Source: Metamycoplasmataceae bacterium
GTDB taxonomy: Bacteria > Bacillota_I > Bacilli_A > Mycoplasmatales > Metamycoplasmataceae
Length of the DNA: 24,000 nt
NCBI GenBank assembly: GCA_965263245.1
Contig: CBDHHR010001146.1
Span: 782,244 to 806,243, forward strand
Direction: 5' to 3'
Part shown: positions 10,258 to 22,890 of the stretch, piece after piece
Layout: the number at the start of each line of letters is the position of its first letter
Numbering within the stretch: position 1 is the first letter of the stretch
Program-made: the position numbers and the translations under genes
Notes under the pieces: model-generated
The model's input: only the letters and a program-made list of their open reading frames with translations
Databases searched by the model: none
Told to the model about the DNA's origin: nothing

Positions 10258-13053
10258 TTAAAATCCTCCTTGGGAAACAAAAACAAATAATGATAATCCC
10301 ACTGAACCAATTGTACTTGCAATTCCTATGAGCGAAGTAAGTAAAATTAATCCTTTTCTTGATTTGAATTTTAAATTATTTTTCTTTAATTTTTTCTTAG
10401 ACTTTATTAAACTTATTAATGATGCACCTGATGCGATTGAACCAAGGGCTAAAACTCCTGCTGAAGAAGCTAAAATGTATTTGAAAGTTTTAGAAATAAT
10501 TACTTTGCTATTTAAAACCTTTTTAAAATTTCAATCCACTGAATCAAGCATTTTTGCGATGCCTTCATAATCTAAATTTAAATCATTTATTTTACTCAAT
10601 GATGCTATTAATTCTTCATCAAGTTGTTTTAAAAGCTTTTGTTTTTCTTCTTCAGAAGCACCTTTAAGATTTTTTATTTCATCAACTTTTTCTTTGTGTT
10701 TTAAACGTAAAATTTCAATTCAGATTTTTTTTGTATCTGCTTTATAATCTTCTGATATTTGTTTAAGTTTAATTGCATTTACAAAACTATTTAAAAAATC
10801 TTCATTTTGAAAATAATTTGTTTGTGAATCATTATATAAATCCTGAAATTTTTTTAAATATTTTTTTTCTTCATTTGAATCAGAAAGTTTTATTTTACTT
10901 AGTTGATTTAAACTTTTTTTATGAATTTCGTCAATTTCATCTCTTACTTTATAAATTTCGTCAGTATTTGCTTTTTTAAATATAGGTTTATAAAATGTGT
11001 AAAGTTTTCGAGATTTTGAATTATAAAAACTAAAAGAAACATAAAGAGTATCATCGTTAGCATATCTAAAAAAGTGTTTTCTATATTTTAAATCTAAATT
11101 TTGCGTATCGGTTTCAAGTTCGTTAAGATTTAGAAAAATATCTTCGAAAGTAAAATCAAAATTTATTTGAGGAGCTTGTAAATTCTCAATATTTTCTTGA
11201 ACAAATGAAGAGTTAACTTCTAATTTTTTCTCAATTCATTTTTCCAAATATTGTCTTTGGGAAAAATCATTATATCAGTAGCTTATAATTTCTTCCCAGG
11301 GTTCTTTTAGTTTTTTTAAAGAAGGGTTTCAACCAGCATATTTATCATTTGAAGAAGCATATTTTCAATTTATTTCATTATTAAAAGTAAATTCAATAAG
11401 AAAGTAAAAGAAAGGATTATTTGCAGGATCATCTGGATTATTAAAAGCAATCTTATTAGTTCAAACAAATCTTGGGTAAGAAAGAAGGTTGTCATCAGGA
11501 GGTTGATTGCCATATTTTTTGTATCATTTTCCACCAGGATTTATTTTTTTAAGTAATTCAATTCATTCATCATTTTTACGAAAAATTTTTTCTGGACCAG
11601 TTTGATCTTCAAGACTATCTCATTCATCTAAAAATAAATATTTTGGTTTGTTTTTCGATGAAAAATCTACTAGTTTTTGAAGATCAATAATTTTTGTTGA
11701 AAAAACAAATATTTCCTTAGAAAAAATTTTTTCATCTGTATTTTTTATTAAATCTTCAAAAGTAAATTCTAACTTAATTTTTCTATAATCAATACGATTT
11801 TCTGGAGTGCTAACAGGAGAATTTATAAATTCAATTTTAAAATCTGTTAGATCAAACGAAGGAAATTGAGTTCTAAAACTTTCAAGTTTTGCAAGTTTTA
11901 AACTGTTAAATCCGTTGGTGTTGAACCAATCATACAGTTGTTCTAGATTATTAACTTTATTACTTAAAAAATTTGTTTGCTCGACTTTAAAAACTTTGTC
12001 ATCATTAATTTCGTCTACTAAATCATTAATTAATGATTGAAACTCTTCTTTTGGGTTGTAAAAAAGAACGTTAGGAACTTTTATTCTTAAATTTTTAGTA
12101 ATTGATGCATCCCCTAATTTTAATTTAATACTTCCTTCTAAAAAAACATCAATTTCTTTAAAACCATTACTTTTTTCTCTAACTGCAGATTTACTGATGT
12201 TAATTGAGGAAACTTCAACATCAGAATTATTTTCTATTTTAAAATTTTCTTTTAATATCAATTTAAAATTTTTAAGTAAATTATCATTAACTTCATTAAT
12301 ATCAAGACCATTTGTTCCAAATCTATCAATTTCATAACTATTAAGATTATTTTTAAAACTTCAAGTTTCTGAAGTAATATTAGCAATTAAAGCATTAGCA
12401 AGGGTGTTAATTTCGTTTAATATATTTTTTTTAACATAATTTTTAACAAATTCTTTTAGTCCTAAATTATAAGTGTTGCTTTTGATAGAGGCTTCTCTAA
12501 GTCATAATTCTTTAATTTCGGGAAATTTTTTATTAAAAAAATTAGTAACGTAAAGAACGTCTTTATCACTTGAGTCATTTCACCTTGGTGAAAATTTACT
12601 CATAATGTCTAGAACGTTTTCTTCAATTAAAACAGGAACAATTTCCTCTAATTTTGGAATATCCAAATTTATAAAATGATTTGTAAAATTTGTAACAATT
12701 CTATTAATTGTTTTAGTTCTTATATCTGGTTCATTTAAGCCATCTTCTAACTTATTAACATCGATTAAATTTAATTTTTTTTCAATTTCTTCTTTTATAT
12801 CATAACCATTATCAAAAGCTTCTTTTCATTTAAGACCCAAACTTTCTATATAATTTTCAGGAATATAATCTTTATAATATATTAAAATTGAATTTCAATA
12901 TGCAGATGGTTTATAATTTCCGTTATTAATCAAAGATCTAATTTTTATTAAAATTTTTGCATTAAGAAAATTTAAAAATAATTTATATTCTTCTGAATCA
13001 ATTGTTGTTACATCCCTTTTAAAACGATTATTATAATTTACGTTATATTCCAT
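10258..13053 (-). CDS. F1-like ATPase cluster 931-aa protein, second (distal) paralog; C-terminal two-helix membrane hairpin; function unknown
   Basis: Starts at ATG 13051-13053 (MEYNVNYNNRFKRDVTT...). It is in frame with track fragment 11620..12261. I traced 11190-11620 codon by codon (many TGA=Trp, no TAA/TAG), and the remainder translates in parallel with the proximal copy. It ends ...ILASSAGVLALGSIASGASLISLIKSKKKLKKNNLKFKSRKGLILLTSLIGIASTIGSVGLSLFVFVSQGGF* at TAA 10258-10260. AAAAAGG Shine-Dalgarno. Confidence 0.85.

Positions 13054-13135: not shown

Positions 13136-13140
<5 letters not shown>
13054..13140 (-). pseudogene. Relic of the 3' end of the epsilon-like gene, marking the duplication junction
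   Basis: Plus-strand attcatttttcttaattatctcattaatttttaaaacaattatt (13098-13140) matches attcattttttttaattatctcattaattgttaaaccaatcatt inside the epsilon-like CDS (about 18941-18984). aatttaaccttttt directly 5' of both ATGs is shared. The relic has internal deletions and no open frame. Confidence 0.7.
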
Positions 13141-16079
<2,939 letters not shown>

Positions 16080-16080
<1 letters not shown>

Positions 16081-18875
16081 TAAAATCCTCCTTGTGAAAC
16101 AAAAACAAATAATGATAATCCTGCTGAACCAATTGTACTTGCAATTCCTATGAGCGAAGTGAGTAAAATTAATCCTTTTCTCGATTTAAATTTTAAATTA
16201 TTTTTCTTTAATTTTTTCTTAGACTTTATTAAACTTATTAATGATGCACTTGACACAACTGAACCAAGAGCTAAAACTCCTGCTGAAGAAGCTAAAATGT
16301 ATTTAAAAGTTTTAGAAATGATTACTTTGCTATTTAAAACCTTTTTAAAATTTCAATCCACTGAATTAAGCATTTTAATAATATCATAATCTAAATTTAA
16401 ATCCTTTATTTTGCTTAATGATGCAAGCAACTCTTCATCAAGTTGTTCCAAAAGTTTTTGTTTTTCTTCTTCAGAAGCACCTTTAAGATTTTTTATTTCC
16501 TTAATTTTTTCGTCGTATTTTGAACGTAAAATTTTAATTCAAATTTGTTTTGTATCTTCTTTATAATTTTCTAATATTTTTTCAAGTTTAAATGTATTTA
16601 CAAAACCATTTAAAAATTCTTCATTTTGAAAATAATTGGTTTGTGAATCATCATATAAATCTTGAAATTCTTTTAAATATTTTTTTTCTTCATTAACGTT
16701 AGAAAGACTTATTTTATCTAATTGGTTTAAACTTTTTTTATGAATTAAATCAATTTCATTTTTTACTTTATTAATTTCTTCAGTGGTTGCTTTTTTAAGT
16801 ATAGCTTTTTCAACTGTATAAGGGGCAAGATTTTTAACTAAATTTTCAAAATTAAAATAAACGTAAATAGTATCATCTTTATATTTTCGATACTCCATTT
16901 TATAAGTTATATCTAAATCATTTGTTATAACGTTAAGTTCATCAAGATTTTCAAAAAGATCTTCAAGATTAATTGTTGGAAATAACGTTAACTTGTCATA
17001 ATTATCTTGAATAAAAGAAAAGTTAAGTTTTAATTTTTCTTTTATTCATTTTTCCATGTATGAACTTTGACTAGCAGCAATAACTTCGTGTGCCATGCTT
17101 CCGTATCAAGATTCTTTTAATTTTTTTAAAGATGGGTTTCAACCTGAATATTTATCATTTAAAGAAGTGTATTTTCAATTTACTTGATTTTCAAAATTAA
17201 ACCTAATTTTTTCACCTTCTTCATCTGAAGCGGGTAAAGTATTTCAGTAAAATTTTGGATAAAAACTAAGATCTTGATCAATTACTTCATTAGAAGAAAT
17301 TCCGTTAGAACCAAAAGAAGGGCCTTTTTTATACCATATACCATCAGGACTTACTAACTTAAGTAATTCGATTCATTCATCGTTTTTAAGAAAAATATTT
17401 TTTGGAATATTATTTTCATAATAAGTTCGAGGATATCAATCTTCACCAAATAAGTATTTTGGTTTATTTTTAGTTAAAAAATTCATTAATTTTTGAAGAT
17501 TAATAATTTTTGATGAAAAAACAAATATTTCATTAGAAAAAATTTTATCATTTGTTTTTTTTATTAAATCATTAAAAGTAAATTCTAACTTAATTTTTCT
17601 GTGTTGAATGATTAAATCATCAAGATCATCAATAATGGGAAAATTTATAAATTCAATTTTAAAATCTGTTAGGTTAAACGAAGGAAATTGAGTTCTAAAA
17701 CTTTCAAGTTTTGCAAGTTTTAAAGTGTGTAGTCCGTTGGTGTTGAACCAATCATATAATTGTTCTAGATTATTAACTTCCTTGCTTAAAAAATCTATTT
17801 GTTCAATTTTAAAGATTTTATCATTATTAATTTCGGTTACTAAATCATTAATTAATGATTGAAACTCTTCTTTTGGGTTATAAAAAAGAACGTTAGGAAC
17901 TTTTATTCTTAAATTTTTAGTAATTGATGCATCCTCTAATTTTAGCTTTATGGTTCCTTCTAAAAAAACGTCAATTTCTTTAAAACCATTACTTTTTTCT
18001 CTAATTGCAGATTTACTAATGTTAATTGAGGAAGTTTCAACATCAGAATAATTTTCTATTTTAAAATTTTCTTTTAACATTAATGTAAAATTTTCAAGAA
18101 AATATTCATCAATTTCATTAATGTGAAAAGTAGTTGTTTCAAAGTTATCAATTTCATAACTGTTAAGATTATTTTTAAAACTTCAATTTTTTGAAGTAAT
18201 ACTACTAATTAAACCGTTAGAAACTAAATTAATTTGGTTTAATATGTTTTTTTTAACATAATTTTTAACAAATTCTTTTAGTCCTGAATCATAAGTTTTA
18301 CTTTTGATAGCAGCTTCTCTAAGTCATAATTCTTTAATTTCAGAAAATTTTTTGTTATAAAAATTAATAACTTGTAAAACATCTTTATTGTTTATTTTGT
18401 TTCATTTTGGTGAAAATTTACCCATGATTTTTAAAACGTTTTTTTCAATTAAACTAGGAACAACTACTTCTAATTTTGGAATGTCTAAATTTAAAAAATG
18501 ATTTGTAAAATTTGTAACAATTCTATTCGTTGTTTTAATTCTTATATCTTGTTCGTTTAAGCCATCTTCTAATTTATTAACATCAATTAAACTTAATTTT
18601 TTTTCAATTTCTTCTTTTATATCATAACCATTATCAAAAGCTTCTTTTCATTTAAGACCCAAACTTTCCATGTAATTTTCAGGAATATAATCTTTATAAT
18701 ATATTAAAATTGAATTTCAGTATGCAGCTGTTTTATATTCTCCAGAATTTATTCAACGTTGAACATTTGTTGAAATTTTTGAATTAAGAAAATTTAAAAA
18801 TAATTTATATTCTTCTAAATTAGATGCTGTTACATCTCTTTTGAACCGGTTGTTATAATTTACTCTATATTCCAT
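16080..18875 (-). CDS. F1-like ATPase cluster 931-aa protein, first (in-operon) paralog; C-terminal two-helix membrane hairpin; function unknown
   Basis: I traced it codon by codon from ATG 18873-18875 through track fragments 17436..18080 and 16539..16898 to TAG 16080-16082; the only interruptions are TGA. There is no N-terminal signal or TM segment. The C-terminus is ...YILASSAGVLALGSVVSSASLISLI-KSKKKLKKNNLKFKSRKG-LILLTSLIGIASTIGSAGLSLFVFVSQGGF*. Its stop overlaps the alpha-like GTG start. Confidence 0.9.
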
Positions 18876-18985
18876 AATTTAACCTTTTTTTGAAGTGTCT
18901 TTTTGCTTGTCTAAAAGAAAAAGCTCTAATTTAGATTCTAATTCATTTTTTTTAATTATCTCATTAATTGTTAAACCAATCATTT
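16080..18985 (-). repeat. Direct repeat copy 1 (~2.9 kb): 931-aa gene plus the 3' end of the epsilon-like gene
   Basis: See copy 2. The 3'-terminal ~430 nt (16083-16510 vs 10261-10690) differ by only a few substitutions per 100 nt by eye. Confidence 0.9.
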
Positions 18986-19304
18986 CCTTTTTAGTTAAAA
19001 TTTTAATTTTGTGTTTTAAATCTCTTAAATTCATTTTTTTTATTCATGAATTATCTAAAACATTTTCAAGTTTAATGTCGGTTCAAATTATAATGTTTCC
19101 TAACTCATTGGAATAAATTATAGGAAATAATAAAAATAATTTTTTCATTTTTTCATTTTCATCAACCAAAATTAATTTAGCAGCTAGTGGTGAGTGCACT
19201 TCGTTGCTTTTAATTTTTTTACTATAATTTTTAGTAATCAAATATGCTAATTTAATTTTATAGTTAACAGAATTTTCGTATGATACTAATTCTAAATTAA
19301 ACAT
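18879..19304 (-). CDS. F1-like cluster 141-aa protein, probable epsilon-like subunit
   Basis: Track ORF 19083..19304 extends through two TGA codons to TAA 18879-18881. Its size matches F1 epsilon. The N-terminal half is beta-strand-like (MFNLELVSYENSVNYKIKLAYLI...SPLAAKLILVDEN) and the C-terminal half is helical and K/E-rich. Its ATG overlaps the upstream stop by 1 nt. The subunit assignment rests on size, position and published cluster composition, not on alignment. Confidence 0.5.
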
Positions 19305-20131
19305 TATTTAACTCCTCTTTTAGCAATTTGTGACATAAAAACAAGATCTTCAGTGGTTTTTTTTCTAATGTCTTTATTTATCTCTCTTTGTTTTTCTTCA
19401 ATTAATTTATCGATATTTTTTATTGAATTTTCATTTTTTATTAATTTTTCTTTTAAATAGTAAAAACTCTTTTCAATAATCAAAGCTTTGGCAATTTTAG
19501 AAAAATATAAATTTAATAACGTGTTAACACAACTGTTAATTGAAGGATAAAATATTTGTTTATTAATTATTAATTCATCTTTTTTATAATAATTAATGTC
19601 AAGTTTTTCAAGTGGAAAAATGTCTATTTTACCCTTTTTACTTCTTAAAGAATCACATAAAAATGTAATTTTACTTATTTCATCACCTAAGACCATTTTT
19701 GTTAAAAGGTTTCCGATTCCGGTTCCCGCATTAGAAATTTTTTTGCTTGAATAAATTGTTTCGTAACTATTTTTTACAGCGAATTCACAAGCTGCAAAAC
19801 CAACACAAATTAAATAATCATTTTCTTTGTCAAAATCTTTAGAGAGAATTTTGGAAAATTTAAAAACATTTGCTGATATAAGTTCTTTTTCTGGAGTAAT
19901 AAAGACCCATATTTTTCTTTTTTTTGTATTTTTTCGATCGTTTTTACTTAGTTTATATTTATTTTTGATAAAACTTAAGATTTTTTTTGAAACTAGTGCA
20001 ACATCTAAAAATCTTTTAGAAATCTTGTTAGCTCTTTCTAATTTTTGCAAAGTATCAAACTTAGAAATTTCAACAATTTCTTTTAGTCGGTTTAAATTAT
20101 TAATTTGATTAATTTTCTTTTGCTTATCCAT
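19304..20131 (-). CDS. F1-like cluster 275-aa protein, probable gamma-like central-stalk subunit
   Basis: Intact track ORF with an AAGGA Shine-Dalgarno. The length is close to F1 gamma. Long helix-prone N- and C-terminal segments (MDKQKKINQINNLNRLKEIVEISKFDTLQKLERANKISKRF... and ...EKQREINKDIRKKTTEDLVFMSQIAKRGVK) flank a central globular part, as in gamma. No alignment was run. Confidence 0.5.
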   Translation of the reverse strand: MDKQKKINQINNLNRLKEIVEISKFDTLQKLERANKISKRFLDVALVSKKILSFIKNKYKLSKNDRKNTKKRKIWVFITPEKELISANVFKFSKILSKDFDKENDYLICVGFAACEFAVKNSYETIYSSKKISNAGTGIGNLLTKMVLGDEISKITFLCDSLRSKKGKIDIFPLEKLDINYYKKDELIINKQIFYPSINSCVNTLLNLYFSKIAKALIIEKSFYYLKEKLIKNENSIKNIDKLIEEKQREINKDIRKKTTEDLVFMSQIAKRGVK

Positions 20132-20133
20132 TT

Positions 20134-21534
20134 CTATCCTTTAAATTTTGAACCTTCAATTACAATTAAATTATCATTTTCTTTCGAAAGAAGTAAGTGA
20201 TCATAAAGCTTAATAATTGAACCATATTCTAATTTTTCATCAATTAAATCATTGTAAAATTTTTTCTCTTCTCCTGAAAATGGAGAAAAGTTTCATTTTT
20301 TAATATAATCTAAAACTATAAATTTTTTATACTTTTTGTCTAAAAATTTAATAAATTGGTTTTTAAGTGCTAAGGAATAACCAGAAATAAGAGCAAGAAT
20401 TTGGGTTTCATAAATGTGATTTATAACTTCTTCGGTAAACATTTTATCAAAATAAACAAACGTTGCTTTAATTATTGATCTAATGTCAACCGGATTTTCT
20501 TGATTAATTATTTTTTCAAATAAAGCAACTTCATTAAAAACTTTTTTCTTGTTTTTAAAGATGTTAGCAGAAAAAATATTTTTTGTTTTATGAGTTTTAA
20601 TAAACCTATTTTTTCTTTTAGGAATATAAACATTTTCGTATGAAAACTCTGCACTAGGTTTTAAATTTTTATTAAAGTTTAACGAATGATTTATTTTTTT
20701 GACACTAATTTCTTTAATGTTTAATTTTTCAATTAGTTCTTTTTCTTTAAGGGCATCAAGTTTTTGTTGCTGAAACTTTTGATTCATTAAAATATCTTTT
20801 TGGATTTTAATTTCTTCTTCAGCAATGTTTTGTTTAAATAATCTTAATTCAATTTCTTTTTCAGCTTGAAATAATTTATTTTTTTCTATTCTTTTTTGTG
20901 TTTCTTTTAATTTTTCTTCTTCATCAAGAACTTCAATTTTTTTAAGTTTGATTTTATCCTGTTTAATTTCATTAAAAGTTTTTAAAAGTTTTTTCTTAGA
21001 ATCTAACTCTTCGTTTTGAAATTTAATTTCAAGATCAGTTTTTTCTTTTTCTAAATTAGAAATTTCTTTTAAGTTATCATTTTTAAGTTTGATTTTTTTA
21101 AGGTTAATTTTTTTAATTTCATCATCAATTTGTTTTTGGAGAATTTTAGAATCTTTTTTTTGTTTAATAATTAACTCTCTTTTTTTGTTAGTAAGTTCTT
21201 GTTTAGCAAGTTTTATTCTTTCTTTATTTCTTGCTCTTTCTTCTTTAAGAAAAATAAGATTTTGCTTTAATTTTTGGTTTAAATCATCAAATTCTTTTTT
21301 ATACTTAGTGACTACTTCGTTTTCTTTTTTTAATTTTTCTTTTTCGTTTTTTCTAAGAGCAATTTTTAATTTTTTTTCTTCTTCCTTAGCAATTTTTAGT
21401 TGCATTTTGTAATTTTCAATCGCCTTTTTTCTTTCGGCTTTTGCTTTTTTAATTTCTAAATTAGATTTTAACTTTGTTTTAATTTGTTCTAATTTTTTAT
21501 CTGTTAAATTTTTACTTCTTAATTTTTTAAACAT
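20134..21534 (-). CDS. F1-like cluster 466-aa protein: ~270-residue K/E-rich coiled-coil region plus a C-terminal globular domain; function unknown
   Basis: Track ORF 20293..21534 extends past a TGA, traced codon by codon to TAG 20134-20136. AAAGGAG Shine-Dalgarno. There is no hydrophobic segment. The stop lies 2 nt before the next ATG. Confidence 0.85.
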
Positions 21535-22858
21535 TTTTCTCCTTTAAGTTATTTTTTTTGATAATTTGTTTCTTGTTTATTTTCGTTTCTTTGGCGTTAA
21601 AGTTATTTATTCCCATTGTTGTTAACCACCAAGAAACAGAGAGTTTTAATATTAATCAAACCACTGAGGAAATTAAGGTCATGTTTACAAGTTCATTTCA
21701 ACTTAATAAATTATTTAAAATGTCATTTGAAACGTTAAATTGTCTAAACACTCATAAAACAATTATTAAGTTAGAACAAATAAAGATAAACGAAGAAAAG
21801 GAAATTGCTTCGTTAAGACTATCGTTACTACTCTTTGAAGTAACGATAAAAGCTAAAATGTTAATAGCAACGATGGTTGCAATAATTGTTCAATCAAAAT
21901 CAATATAAATTTTGTAATAATATTCAAAATAAAGTTTATTAACTGAAACAAACAAAAACGCTCAGGCAATAACCATTTTTAAAATTTTAAAAGAAGAAAG
22001 TTCACTGTTTCTAAGAAGCGAAAATATTATGGAAACTAAAATACAAATTACCGGAATAAATAAGAAAAACCAACTGTATTCATTAAAATTATCAAACTGA
22101 TAATCTTTTGAAAATCAAATCGTAAAAGGCGTAACCCAAATGATAGACACAAGATAATACTTACTAAAATCTTTATTAAAAGTTAGTTTCTTTTTTGTAA
22201 AATTAATCAAAATAAGACCTTTATAAATGAACGTAAATACAAATAAAAAAATTAACGTAATTAAATATGCTGAATCAGAGTAACTATTAATGTTAATTTT
22301 TTTATCTCCACCTAAAATAAAATGTCTTCTAAGAAAAAAATCAAGTAATACCAAAAAAGTAATTACTAATAAATTATTCATAAAATTATTAATGTTTTTT
22401 TTATAAAGAAAAGGTTGAATTTTTCTTTCAGAAAAACCAATAAAAAGATTTCAAAAAGATAATAAACCAATAATCGGAATTACGACATAATATAATGCGT
22501 TGTAAAAATTTATCCATTCTTTTGGTAAAAATTCATCCATTAAAAAAACTAGTATTGACTGGTATGAAATAAAAATTAAAATTAAAAAAATAATTAAGTA
22601 CTTAGATTTAATTCAAACTAAATTGTAATTTAACATTAAAAAAGAAATTAAGTTGATAACAACCATTACAAACATTATTCATGCTATTTTTAAATAATCA
22701 TTTAAATTATCTTTATTAACGTTGTCAATTAATAAGTAAGTTGATAGAAAAATAGTGTAAAAAACAATTAAATATTTAAAAATTTCTCTAAACACAAAGT
22801 TTTTTTGAAAAACACTAGGTTTGTTATTAATTTGAAAAATTAAACTTTTACTTTCCAT
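21527..22858 (-). CDS. F1-like cluster polytopic membrane protein (about 443 aa, ~12 hydrophobic segments); candidate X0 membrane sector
   Basis: Track fragments 22679..22861 and 22115..22381 share one frame. I traced 22508-22681 and 21527-21601 by hand. About 12 hydrophobic stretches of 17-22 aa were counted by eye. ATG 22856-22858 follows AAAGGAGAGG. The TAA at 21527-21529 overlaps the next gene's start by 8 nt. Confidence 0.8.
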
Positions 22859-22890
22859 CACCTCTCCTTTAAAAATATTATTTTAATAAA

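What the first reader, a model, noticed from the sequence alone, without database searches (positions are those of the whole stretch)
16083..16320. C-terminal small-residue-rich TM hairpin with a polybasic loop: a c-subunit-like shape without an ion-binding carboxylate, and a topology puzzle
Seen in sequence: both paralogs end with two hydrophobic helices rich in G/A/S, YILASSAGVLALGSVVSSASLISLI and LILLTSLIGIASTIGSAGLSLFVFV. An 18-residue loop, KSKKKLKKNNLKFKSRKG (10 of 18 residues Lys/Arg), connects them, and only 5 residues follow. The same element lies at 10261-10498 in the distal copy and is the most conserved part of the gene. Neither helix contains Asp or Glu.
Established knowledge: F/V/A-type rotor c-subunits are helical hairpins with glycine-rich packing motifs, a polar cytoplasmic loop that contacts gamma/epsilon, and an essential membrane-embedded carboxylate.
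Inference: the hairpin could anchor or oligomerise as part of the unknown X0 sector but cannot bind H+/Na+ in the canonical way. The positive-inside rule places the loop in the cytoplasm. That would put the ~850-residue N-terminal domain, which has no signal peptide, outside the cell. The alternative topology puts 10 basic residues outside. Either arrangement is unusual.
Basis: partly seen in the sequence, partly recalled or inferred. Interest (0 to 1): 0.6.

Follow-up and report, generated by a model that had tools for sequence, protein, structure and literature searches.

The report
Membrane anchor of F1-like ATPase subunit
The two-helix tail with a lysine-rich loop is the already-described membrane anchor of the large 'Protein 5' subunit of mycoplasma F1-like ATPases, but this genome belongs to a rare, undescribed branch in which that subunit has lost its export signal, so which way it sits in the membrane is a genuine open question.

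Summary
Under code 4 both 931-aa paralogs end in two uncharged ~25-residue helices joined by an 18-residue loop with 10 Lys/Arg, followed by 5 residues. There is no Asp/Glu and no other hydrophobic segment.

It is not a new object. It is the C-terminal anchor of 'Protein 5' of the mycoplasma seven-gene F1-like X0 ATPase cluster. That hairpin and its topology ambiguity were published in 2012, and the topology was still called unknown in 2026. It shows no detectable homology to c-subunits.

What is new is the lineage. By α+β phylogeny the cluster is a separate clade, sister to Type 3. It was found in 7 of 151 sampled family genomes, and no MIP (DUF31) gene was found in its genomes.

All 16 Type 2/3 Protein 5s examined carry an N-terminal signal peptide, which puts the big domain outside and the basic loop inside. 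None of the 12 proteins of this lineage does. Here helix 1 is also far less hydrophobic and richer in Gly/Ala/Ser, and the loop is twice as long and twice as basic.

My best reading (inferred) has four parts:
- The body is cytoplasmic.
- The loop stays inside.
- Helix 2 acts as a tail-anchor.
- Helix 1 only dips into or packs in the membrane.

Earlier notes of this scan describe analogous secreted-domain plus carboxylate-less hairpin subunits in CPR bacteria; I did not check them.

The parts
16080..18875 (-). Gene 5, 'Protein 5' of the F1-like X0 cluster (931 aa, P0001), proximal copy. It has no signal peptide and ends in the C-terminal hairpin.
   Evidence: It occupies the syntenic slot directly upstream of the alpha-like gene in all clusters examined.
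16227..16301 (-). Helix 1 (residues 859-883). It is 52% Gly/Ala/Ser, marginally hydrophobic (best 19-mer summed dG +1.7 kcal/mol) and not amphipathic (muH 0.05).
16173..16226 (-). Polybasic loop (residues 884-901; 10 of 18 Lys/Arg, no acidic residue). It carries the lineage-conserved [ST]-x-K-[KR]-L-x-K motif.
16098..16172 (-). Helix 2 (residues 902-926), the more hydrophobic of the two and the proposed membrane-spanning tail-anchor.
16083..16097 (-). Five-residue tail SQGGF. Its GGA GGA codons form the Shine-Dalgarno sequence (AGGAGGA) of the overlapping alpha-like gene, whose start is in TAGTG.
10258..13053 (-). Second copy of Protein 5 (931 aa, P0002, 71% identical), downstream of the beta-like gene. 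Its hairpin lies at 10261-10498.
   Evidence: The sister-genus MAG G002 also has two hairpin-ending genes.
21527..22861 (-). Gene 1, 'Protein 1' (444 aa), a polytopic membrane protein with roughly 12 TM helices. It is the other X0 membrane subunit.
   Evidence: literature
20134..21534 (-). Gene 2, 'Protein 2' (466 aa, soluble). This is the long form, against ~170 aa in Type 3.
19304..20131 (-). Gene 3, gamma-like subunit (275 aa).
   Evidence: Weak PF00231 match at E=2.5e-4, below Pfam's cut-off. BLAST-level similarity to gene 3 of all other clusters.
18879..19304 (-). Gene 4 (141 aa), in the epsilon-like slot. Its stop lies 3 nt before the start of gene 5.
   Evidence: The epsilon-like assignment rests on position and the literature, not on a test made here.
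14587..16080 (-). Gene 6, alpha-like subunit (497 aa) with Walker A GDRSSGKT.
   Evidence: PF00006 at 2.8e-67
13136..14587 (-). Gene 7, beta-like subunit (483 aa) with Walker A GGAGVGKT. It lacks the long N-terminal extension of Type 2 beta.
   Evidence: PF00006 at 3.1e-70

Best explanation
SHOWN: the element is the C-terminal membrane-anchor module of 'Protein 5', the large X0 subunit of a mycoplasma seven-gene F1-like X0 ATPase. The gene order is 12-TM Protein 1, Protein 2, gamma-like, epsilon-like, Protein 5, alpha-like, beta-like. It is not a c-subunit homologue and has no ion-binding carboxylate. The cluster belongs to a separate lineage, sister to Type 3, whose genomes yielded no MIP gene. 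In this lineage Protein 5 has no signal peptide, whereas every Type 2 and Type 3 Protein 5 examined has one. INFERRED (topology and mechanism): in Types 2/3 the signal peptide puts the large domain outside, the short basic loop inside and the C-terminus outside. In the window's lineage the ~855-residue body cannot be exported and stays in the cytoplasm beside the F1-like head. The polybasic loop also stays on the cytoplasmic face. There it clamps the anchor to anionic lipid head-groups and, given its conserved [ST]xK[KR]LxK motif, probably contacts a cytoplasmic surface of Protein 1 or the gamma/epsilon-like foot. Helix 2 spans the membrane as a tail-anchor, and only the five terminal residues cross. 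Helix 1 has become Gly/Ala/Ser-rich and too weakly hydrophobic to insert on its own. It does not act as an independent span. It dips into the inner leaflet or packs against helix 2 and Protein 1. Functionally the hairpin tethers a large cytoplasmic stator or adaptor-like subunit to the X0 membrane sector. It is not part of an ion-translocating rotor. The confidence given applies to the whole statement including the inferred topology; the identity as the Protein 5 anchor alone I would put above 0.9.
For: Identity. The gene order and Pfam hits match the published cluster. A large ORF ending in helix, basic loop, helix sits directly upstream of the alpha-like gene in all 22 F1-like clusters examined, except two that have a single helix. 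The genuine atpH-atpA operons lack it.

Lineage. In an alpha+beta maximum-likelihood tree the split between this class and Types 1-3 has support 100, and Type 3 monophyly has 92. Close alpha orthologues (50-71% identity) occur in only 7 of 151 family genomes and in 0 of 267 genomes from 14 other families. PF01732 (MIP) was not found in G000, G001, G005, G010 or G024, but lies next to the Type 3 clusters in four control genomes.

Signal peptide. The maximum N-terminal hydrophobicity (15-residue window) is <=1.29 in 12 of 12 proteins of this class and >=1.57 in 13 of 13 Type 3 proteins. Type 2 also has N-terminal hydrophobic segments. No upstream segment has summed dG below +6.8 kcal/mol. The start codon abuts or overlaps the stop of gene 4 in all five clusters, which leaves no room for a missed exon.

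Loop inside. Two sister Type 3 genomes carry a genuine signal peptide, ectodomain, single TM and basic tail, which is a classic type I arrangement. The stop codon is followed directly by the RBS and the alpha start.

Remodelling tied to loss of the signal peptide:
- Helix 1 best-19-mer dG: median +1.68 against -2.18 kcal/mol (P=0.004).
- Helix 1 Gly/Ala/Ser content: 52% against 22% (P=0.0025).
- Loop length: 21 against 10.5 residues (P=3e-4).
- Loop Lys+Arg: 9 against 5 (P=5e-4).
A loop that had to be translocated would be expected to lose positive charge, not double it.

Constraint. dN/dS is 0.12 in the hairpin, and motifs are conserved across proteins only 18-24% identical. Distant HMM hits match only the C-terminal ~100 residues.
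Against: No topology predictor or experiment was available, so the orientation is inferred from charge bias and comparison only.
- Helix 1 is 25 uncharged residues, long enough to span, and is not amphipathic (muH <=0.25). It is therefore not an obvious interfacial helix, and a 'dipping' helix is an ad hoc solution.
- Its strong conservation shows it matters but does not say how.
- The only published experiment on a homologue is trypsin-bead shaving of the Type 3 protein MSC_0620. It placed residues 182-231 in the cytoplasm (Beven 2012). That contradicts the signal-peptide-based reading of Type 3 used here as a calibrator.
- In M. mobile a C-terminal EYFP fusion of MMOB1650 fluoresced (PMC7052211). 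This is easier to reconcile with a cytoplasmic C-terminus.
- The dG values are simple sums of central-position Hessa values, not the full position-dependent predictor.
- AF2 gives the hairpin only pLDDT 35-57.
- The P-values compare related sequences and overstate independence.
Confidence: 0.45

Rival explanations
1. Classic in-out-in hairpin, the 'simplest model' of Beven 2012. The body is cytoplasmic, both helices span the membrane, the polybasic loop is displayed on the cell surface and the C-terminus returns to the cytoplasm. The exposed +10 loop could then bind anionic host or surface partners.
For: Both segments are ~25 uncharged residues flanked by charges, which is the textbook length for a span. 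No signal peptide is needed. Trypsin shaving put the body of the Type 3 homologue in the cytoplasm. The C-terminal EYFP fusion of M. mobile MMOB1650 was fluorescent and localised. AF2 draws two long antiparallel helices.
Against: It requires moving 6-10 net positive charges and no acidic residue across the membrane, against the positive-inside rule. The loop is longer and more basic precisely in the lineage that would have to export it. Helix 1 has a positive summed dG (+1.7 kcal/mol median). The homologous loop or tail is on the cytoplasmic side in signal-peptide-bearing Types 2/3, including the single-TM type I variants.
Confidence: 0.28
2. Same topology as Types 2/3 and as a c-subunit (N-out, loop-in, C-out). 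The ~855-residue body is exported without a classical signal peptide, for instance by the cluster's own 12-TM Protein 1 and F1-like ATPase acting as a dedicated translocase.
For: It keeps the ancestral orientation of the hairpin and obeys the positive-inside rule. The central domain is the fastest-diverging part of the two paralogs, at 45-65% identity with indels, as is often seen in host-exposed proteins. F1-related ATPases do drive protein export in type III systems (established knowledge; also raised in Toyonaga 2025).
Against: No hydrophobic or signal-like segment exists anywhere upstream. The N-terminus lacks the Ser/Thr/Asn/Gly-rich linker seen after Type 2/3 signal peptides. Mollicutes are known to have only Sec/YidC (my own knowledge, not tested here). 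There is no precedent for exporting an 850-residue N-terminal domain by a reverse signal-anchor. It does not explain why helix 1 lost hydrophobicity.
Confidence: 0.1
3. The hairpins oligomerise into a c-ring-like rotor that is turned by the gamma/epsilon-like shaft through the basic loops. This is a proton-blind rotor.
For: The shape is a helical hairpin with a polar loop. Helix 1 of several orthologues has Gly-rich runs reminiscent of c-subunit helix 1. This scan's earlier notes describe c-like carboxylate-less hairpins in CPR F1-like operons (not checked here).
Against: There is no detectable homology to the c-subunits of the same family of genomes (hhalign probability <1%) or to PF00137. 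No carboxylate is conserved. Small-xxx-small spacing is not above shuffled expectation. Each protomer would carry an 855-residue domain. Published AF3 models place the gamma/epsilon-like foot on the 12-TM Protein 1, not on Protein 5. Two Type 3 genomes do without helix 2 altogether.
Confidence: 0.04

Closest known systems
Protein 5 of the Type 3 F1-like X0 ATPase (MSC_0620 / MMCAP2_0577; Beven 2012, Berlureau 2026)
   Same: Same slot in the same seven-gene order. It is a large, fast-evolving protein that ends in two uncharged helices joined by a Lys/Arg-rich loop immediately before the alpha-like gene. The alpha/beta-like subunits are the nearest relatives by phylogeny, as a sister clade.
   Different: Type 3 has an N-terminal signal peptide, a short loop (6-15 residues, 4-6 Lys/Arg), strongly hydrophobic helices, a short Protein 2 (~170 aa) and adjacent MIB/MIP genes. 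The window's protein has none of these. The large domains show no detectable homology (hhalign probability <1%).
MMOB1650 of the Type 2 (G1) gliding-motor ATPase of Mycoplasma mobile
   Same: Same slot, a large protein with two C-terminal helices and a basic loop. Protein 2 is the long form, as here.
   Different: It has a signal peptide. Its beta subunit has a long N-terminal extension (556-784 aa against 483 aa here). Its alpha is only 37% identical, and it groups with Type 1 rather than with this class in the tree. The window's Protein 2 gave no match to any PDB chain, including the G1-ATPase entry.
F-type ATP synthase c-subunit (Pfam PF00137)
   Same: A helical hairpin with a polar connecting loop, encoded in an F1-related operon. 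In Types 2/3 the predicted topology is also the same (termini out, loop in).
   Different: There is no sequence or profile similarity, no membrane carboxylate and no R-N/Q-P loop motif. The loop is polybasic. An ~855-residue domain is fused in front. The genome has its own genuine c-subunit operon elsewhere.
Tail-anchored membrane proteins (general class)
   Same: The proposed working mode is the same: a large cytoplasmic body, a basic juxtamembrane stretch on the cytoplasmic side, one C-terminal span and only a few residues translocated.
   Different: Tail-anchored proteins have a single hydrophobic segment. Here a second, conserved, small-residue-rich helix precedes the basic stretch, and its position is unresolved. 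Membership was not tested experimentally.

Membership tests
Mycoplasma F1-like X0 ATPase cluster (Beven 2012) | Seven co-oriented genes in the order 12-TM protein, soluble protein, gamma-like, epsilon-like, large protein with C-terminal TMs, alpha-like, beta-like, in addition to a genuine F1F0 operon | tested here: met
   The genuine alpha/beta pair lies elsewhere on the same contig.
Mycoplasma F1-like X0 ATPase cluster (Beven 2012) | Alpha- and beta-like subunits with an ATP-synt_ab nucleotide-binding domain and Walker A | tested here: met
   PF00006 at 2.8e-67 and 3.1e-70. Walker A is GDRSSGKT and GGAGVGKT.
Mycoplasma F1-like X0 ATPase cluster (Beven 2012) | Protein 5 anchored by two C-terminal transmembrane helices with a short loop | tested here: met
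   The hydrophobicity of helix 1 is marginal.
Type 3 F1-like X0 ATPase | Alpha/beta-like sequences fall inside the Type 3 clade | tested here: not met
   They form a sister clade. The split has support 100 and Type 3 monophyly 92. Alpha identity to Type 3 is 40-44% against 50-71% within the class.
Type 3 F1-like X0 ATPase | Co-occurrence with MIB-MIP (126 of 126 strains in Berlureau 2026) | tested here: not met
   PF01732 was not found in the own genome or in four other genomes of the class. Four Type 3 control genomes were positive. MIB itself was not searched for. M. mobile is a published exception.
Type 3 F1-like X0 ATPase | [quoted passage not shown] | tested here: not met
   There is no N-terminal hydrophobic segment. 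Protein 2 is 466 aa.
Type 2 (G1) ATPase of gliding mycoplasmas | Alpha/beta in the Type 2 clade; beta with a long N-terminal extension; signal peptide on the MMOB1650 homologue | tested here: not met
   Tree. Beta is 483 aa against 556-784 aa. There is no signal peptide. The PDB 9io5 alpha scores no better than chloroplast alpha.
F-type c-subunit (PF00137) | Match to the ATP-synt_C profile or to c-subunit alignments | tested here: not met
   No PF00137 hit at E<=10 for seven hairpins. hhalign probability is <1% against the c-subunits of four related genomes.
F-type c-subunit (PF00137) | Conserved membrane-embedded Asp/Glu in helix 2 | tested here: not met
   None in the window's two copies. 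Only sporadic, non-aligned acidic residues occur in 29 hairpins.
Pfam PF28258 (MSC_0620_UU052) | Match to the family profile | not testable with these tools
   The family is named only by the Atlas look-alike search, at a score of 0.76, which is a lead only. The local Pfam copy does not hold it: Type 3 proteins also gave no hit.

The most novel reading that the evidence does not exclude
This is a fourth kind of mycoplasma F1-like machine. One possibility is that its large X0 subunit has been turned to face the cytoplasm, so the motor's output is intracellular or within the membrane instead of at the cell surface. The more radical possibility is that the 855-residue domain is still surface-exposed and is exported without any signal peptide by its own 12-TM/F1-like partner. 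That would make X0 a protein-conducting device.
Probability: 0.12. Interest if true: 0.8.

Novelty: new variant of a known kind. Interest (0 to 1): 0.45.

Why it matters
The topology, stoichiometry and mechanism of the X0 sector of mycoplasma F1-like ATPases are still stated to be unknown (Berlureau 2026). These machines include the gliding motor and the ATPase needed for antibody cleavage by MIB-MIP.

The comparison made here gives two natural experiments:
- Type 3 variants with a signal peptide, one TM and a basic tail argue that the large subunit is extracellular and the basic loop cytoplasmic. This conflicts with the 2012 protease-shaving model.
- A rare sister lineage has lost the signal peptide and MIB-MIP and has remodelled helix 1 and the loop.

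Determining the orientation of this one protein would show whether force from the F1-like head is always delivered to the cell surface or can be used inside the cell. It would also give a minimal system for studying how the hairpin couples to the motor.

Tried and rejected
- Word-indexed protein search found only 5 close relatives.
- A pattern scan of genome contigs with the Protein 5 profile found nothing. With the alpha-like protein it returned only one uncultured MAG, so the organism could not be named.
- The Protein 5 profile against 61 relatives hit only the same genus. I therefore switched to the conserved alpha-like gene to locate clusters.
- An HMM search of 1.8 billion representatives gave 9 hits. 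The distant ones matched only the C-terminal ~100 residues.
- PDB sequence searches with Protein 5 and Protein 2 found nothing.
- AF2 on the full-length protein was poor (pLDDT 48). The C-terminal third was good for residues 592-820 but poor for the hairpin.
- Foldseek against the PDB gave no match with E<0.04 for either model.
- hhalign between the large domains of the three classes showed no homology. Between the hairpins of this class and Types 2/3 the signal was only weak (probability 36%, E=4e-4).
- My first MIP control, M. mobile, was invalid because that species is published to lack MIB-MIP. I replaced it with four Type 3 genomes.
- The Pfam DUF1542 hit at residues 781-826 is below the curated cut-off and lies in a Lys/Glu-rich helix, so I did not use it.
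- An in-plane amphipathic helix 1 is rejected because muH is <=0.25.
- A functional C-terminal GG[F/L] motif is rejected in favour of overlap with the alpha gene's RBS.
Full report
**Observation.** The window has ~24% GC, and its long reading frames close up only when TGA is read as Trp. It is therefore Mollicute DNA. On the minus strand, 16080-18875 and 10258-13053 each encode a 931-aa protein. The two are 71% identical.
- an uncharged helix at residues 859-883;
- an 18-residue loop with 9 Lys, 1 Arg and no acidic residue;
- a second uncharged helix at 902-926;
- five final residues.

These two helices are the only hydrophobic segments in either protein. The least unfavourable upstream 19-mer has a summed Hessa dG of +9.3 kcal/mol. 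The loop is by far the most basic 18-mer in the protein, net +10 against +5 for the runner-up. Between the paralogs the hairpin is 95% identical in amino acids, with 9 synonymous and 4 non-synonymous differences (dN/dS ~0.12). It is therefore held by purifying selection. The central domain (residues 485-735) has fallen to 45-65% identity. The only detail that fails is the 'packing motif' claim: small-xxx-small spacing is no commoner than in shuffles of the same helices.

**What it is.** The surrounding genes on the minus strand are, in order:
- a 444-aa polytopic membrane protein with roughly 12 TM helices;
- a 466-aa soluble protein;
- a gamma-like protein, with a weak PF00231 match;
- a 141-aa protein;
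- the 931-aa protein;
- an alpha-like and a beta-like ATPase subunit (PF00006 at 1e-67 and 1e-70, Walker A present).

This is the seven-gene 'F1-like X0' cluster described by Beven et al. 2012 (PMC3369863). That paper already reports 'Protein 5' as anchored by two C-terminal helices joined by a short loop. It notes that TMHMM and TMpred give opposite topologies, and it settles on a cytoplasmic body from bead-trypsin shaving of MSC_0620. Berlureau et al. [quoted passage not shown] They state that the topology of the complex is unknown. Toyonaga et al. list MMOB1650 with two TM segments as a possible partner of the gamma foot. The hairpin and its puzzle are therefore known.

**Which cluster type.** The genome has only two alpha/beta pairs, the genuine operon and this one. 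I searched 151 genomes of the same family with the alpha-like protein. Close orthologues (50-71% identity, 500-760 bits) appeared in only seven genomes of four genera. All other hits sat near 40%. A further sample of 398 genomes across 15 families found none outside the family.

I fetched 26 clusters and annotated them under code 4. G004 appears to be M. mobile on two grounds. Its 226-kb alpha gives exactly the score of the PDB G1-ATPase alpha chain. A concatenated alpha+beta maximum-likelihood tree rooted on the genuine operons gives Type 1, then Type 2, then Type 3 and the window's class as sisters. The split that isolates the window's class has support 100, and Type 3 monophyly has 92.

The MIP family model (PF01732) hits genes flanking the Type 3 clusters in four control genomes. 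It finds nothing in the own genome or in four other genomes of the class. I found no paper describing a fourth type.

**The informative contrast.** Every Type 3 Protein 5 (13 of 13) and every Type 2 Protein 5 (3 of 3) starts with a basic n-region and a hydrophobic core. In Type 3 this typically ends in an Ala-x-Ala/Ser-like site followed by a Ser/Thr/Asn-rich linker. None of the 12 proteins of the window's class has this; their N-terminal hydrophobicity values do not overlap with those of Type 3. The start codons of this class abut or overlap the stop of gene 4, so no upstream coding sequence has been missed.

A signal peptide followed by two helices with a basic loop yields body-out, loop-in, C-terminus-out. 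Two sister Type 3 genomes (L049, L056) have genuinely lost helix 2. The stop codon is followed at once by the RBS and the alpha start, which leaves a signal peptide, an ectodomain, one TM and a Lys-rich tail. This is a textbook type I protein. That is independent support for a cytoplasmic loop in Type 3, and it disagrees with the 2012 shaving result.

In the window's class the hairpin is remodelled:

| Feature | Window's class (median) | Types 2/3 (median) | P |
|---|---|---|---|
| Helix 1 best 19-mer dG (kcal/mol) | +1.68 | -2.18 | 0.004 |
| Helix 1 Gly/Ala/Ser content | 52% | 22% | 0.0025 |
| Loop length (residues) | 21 | 10.5 | 3e-4 |
| Loop Lys+Arg | 9 | 5 | 5e-4 |
| Helix 2 best 19-mer dG (kcal/mol) | -0.86 | -2.69 | 0.016 |

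Helix 2 remains favourable in both groups. These P-values compare related sequences and so overstate independence.

Across proteins only 18-24% identical, several motifs persist: an S-K-x-x-K-Y flank, a G-x-A-S-x-L-G-L-G-like core in helix 1, and a [ST]-x-K-[KR]-L-x-K loop motif. Distant HMM hits align only over this C-terminal ~100 residues.

**Mechanism (inferred).** An 855-residue domain with no signal sequence stays in the cytoplasm. A loop carrying 6-10 positive and no negative charges should stay there too, and it became more basic exactly when the signal peptide was lost.

The arrangement that satisfies both has three elements:
- Helix 2 is a tail-anchor, with only the five terminal residues crossing.
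- The polybasic loop lies on the inner face, bound to anionic lipids and probably to Protein 1 or the gamma/epsilon-like foot.
- Helix 1 no longer acts as an autonomous span. It dips into the membrane or packs there.

I put this at about 0.45. The classic in-out-in hairpin with an exposed loop gets about 0.28. It is favoured by helix length, by the 2012 experiment and by the fluorescent C-terminal EYFP fusion of MMOB1650. Export of the body by an unconventional route gets about 0.1. A c-ring-like rotor gets about 0.04.

**Not a c-subunit.** The genuine c-subunits of four related genomes show the Gly-rich helix 1, the R-N-P-E loop and the membrane Glu. Profile comparison of the hairpins with them gives probability below 1%. 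No ATP-synt_C hit appears at E<=10. No acidic residue is conserved in 29 hairpins.

**Structure.** AF2 on the full protein with a 12-sequence alignment was poor, at pLDDT 48. The C-terminal third gave a confident alpha/beta-plus-helical-bundle domain for residues 592-820 (pLDDT 80-95), but only 35-57 for the hairpin. Foldseek found no PDB neighbour for either model. The Atlas pointed weakly (score 0.76) to PF28258 'MSC_0620_UU052', which the local Pfam copy does not hold.

**Side result.** The terminal GG[F/L/Q/I] is a by-product of gene overlap. Its GGA GGx codons are the Shine-Dalgarno sequence of the alpha-like gene. The motif appears where the Protein 5 stop abuts the alpha start and is absent where a spacer carries the RBS, with one exception.

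**Verdict.** The object is known. The c-subunit reading is not supported. The topology conflict is genuine for this lineage. The lineage itself is a signal-peptide-less, MIB-MIP-less sister of Type 3 with a remodelled anchor, and it appears to be undescribed. It is a new variant of a known kind, of moderate interest.

Noticed in passing
window 16083-16097 and the alpha-like start at 16078-16080; loci L041, L042, L050, L053, L057, L078: The conserved C-terminal GG[F/L/Q/I] of Protein 5 is encoded by GGAGG, which is the Shine-Dalgarno sequence of the overlapping alpha-like gene. Proteins whose stop is separated from the alpha start by a spacer lack the motif. L043 is an exception.
   Followed up: yes
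L049 (G117) and L056 (G156), Protein 5 3' ends: Two sister Type 3 clusters encode Protein 5 with a signal peptide, a single C-terminal TM and a Lys-rich tail. Helix 2 is genuinely absent, not frameshifted. This argues that the large domain of Type 3 is extracellular, contrary to the 2012 trypsin-shaving model.
   Followed up: partly
L009 and L010 (G002 contigs C54 and C9): The sister MAG of the same genus also has two hairpin-ending genes. One is followed by the alpha-like gene and one by non-coding DNA. The Protein 5 duplication therefore predates the split of these two genomes.
   Followed up: partly
L078 (G001:C5): A genome of the window's genus carries, besides its own-class cluster, a Type 3-like cluster whose Protein 5 is only 313 aa but keeps the hairpin. 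It sits on a long branch in the alpha+beta tree.
   Followed up: no
L075 (G003:C1:833500-849900): An orphan alpha-like/beta-like pair groups inside Type 3. It has no Protein 1-5 genes upstream and lies next to a 752-aa signal-anchored ORF.
   Followed up: no
own assembly G000: The assembly holding the window is 17.7 Mb in 1146 contigs, while the window's contig alone is ~1.04 Mb and looks like a complete Mollicute chromosome. The assembly is probably a mixture of host, other organisms and this Mollicute.
   Followed up: no
window residues 592-820 of P0001 (about 16416-17102, minus strand): The juxtamembrane alpha/beta-plus-helical-bundle domain folds confidently in AF2 (pLDDT 80-95) but has no Foldseek neighbour in the PDB (best E=0.2).
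   Followed up: partly
literature, PMC3369863 section 19: The 2012 text assigns the short (19 kDa) Protein 2 to Type 2 and the long one to Type 3. In the clusters I annotated it is the reverse: about 155-220 aa in Type 3 and about 290-320 aa in Type 2. The window's class is longest, at 350-499 aa.
   Followed up: partly
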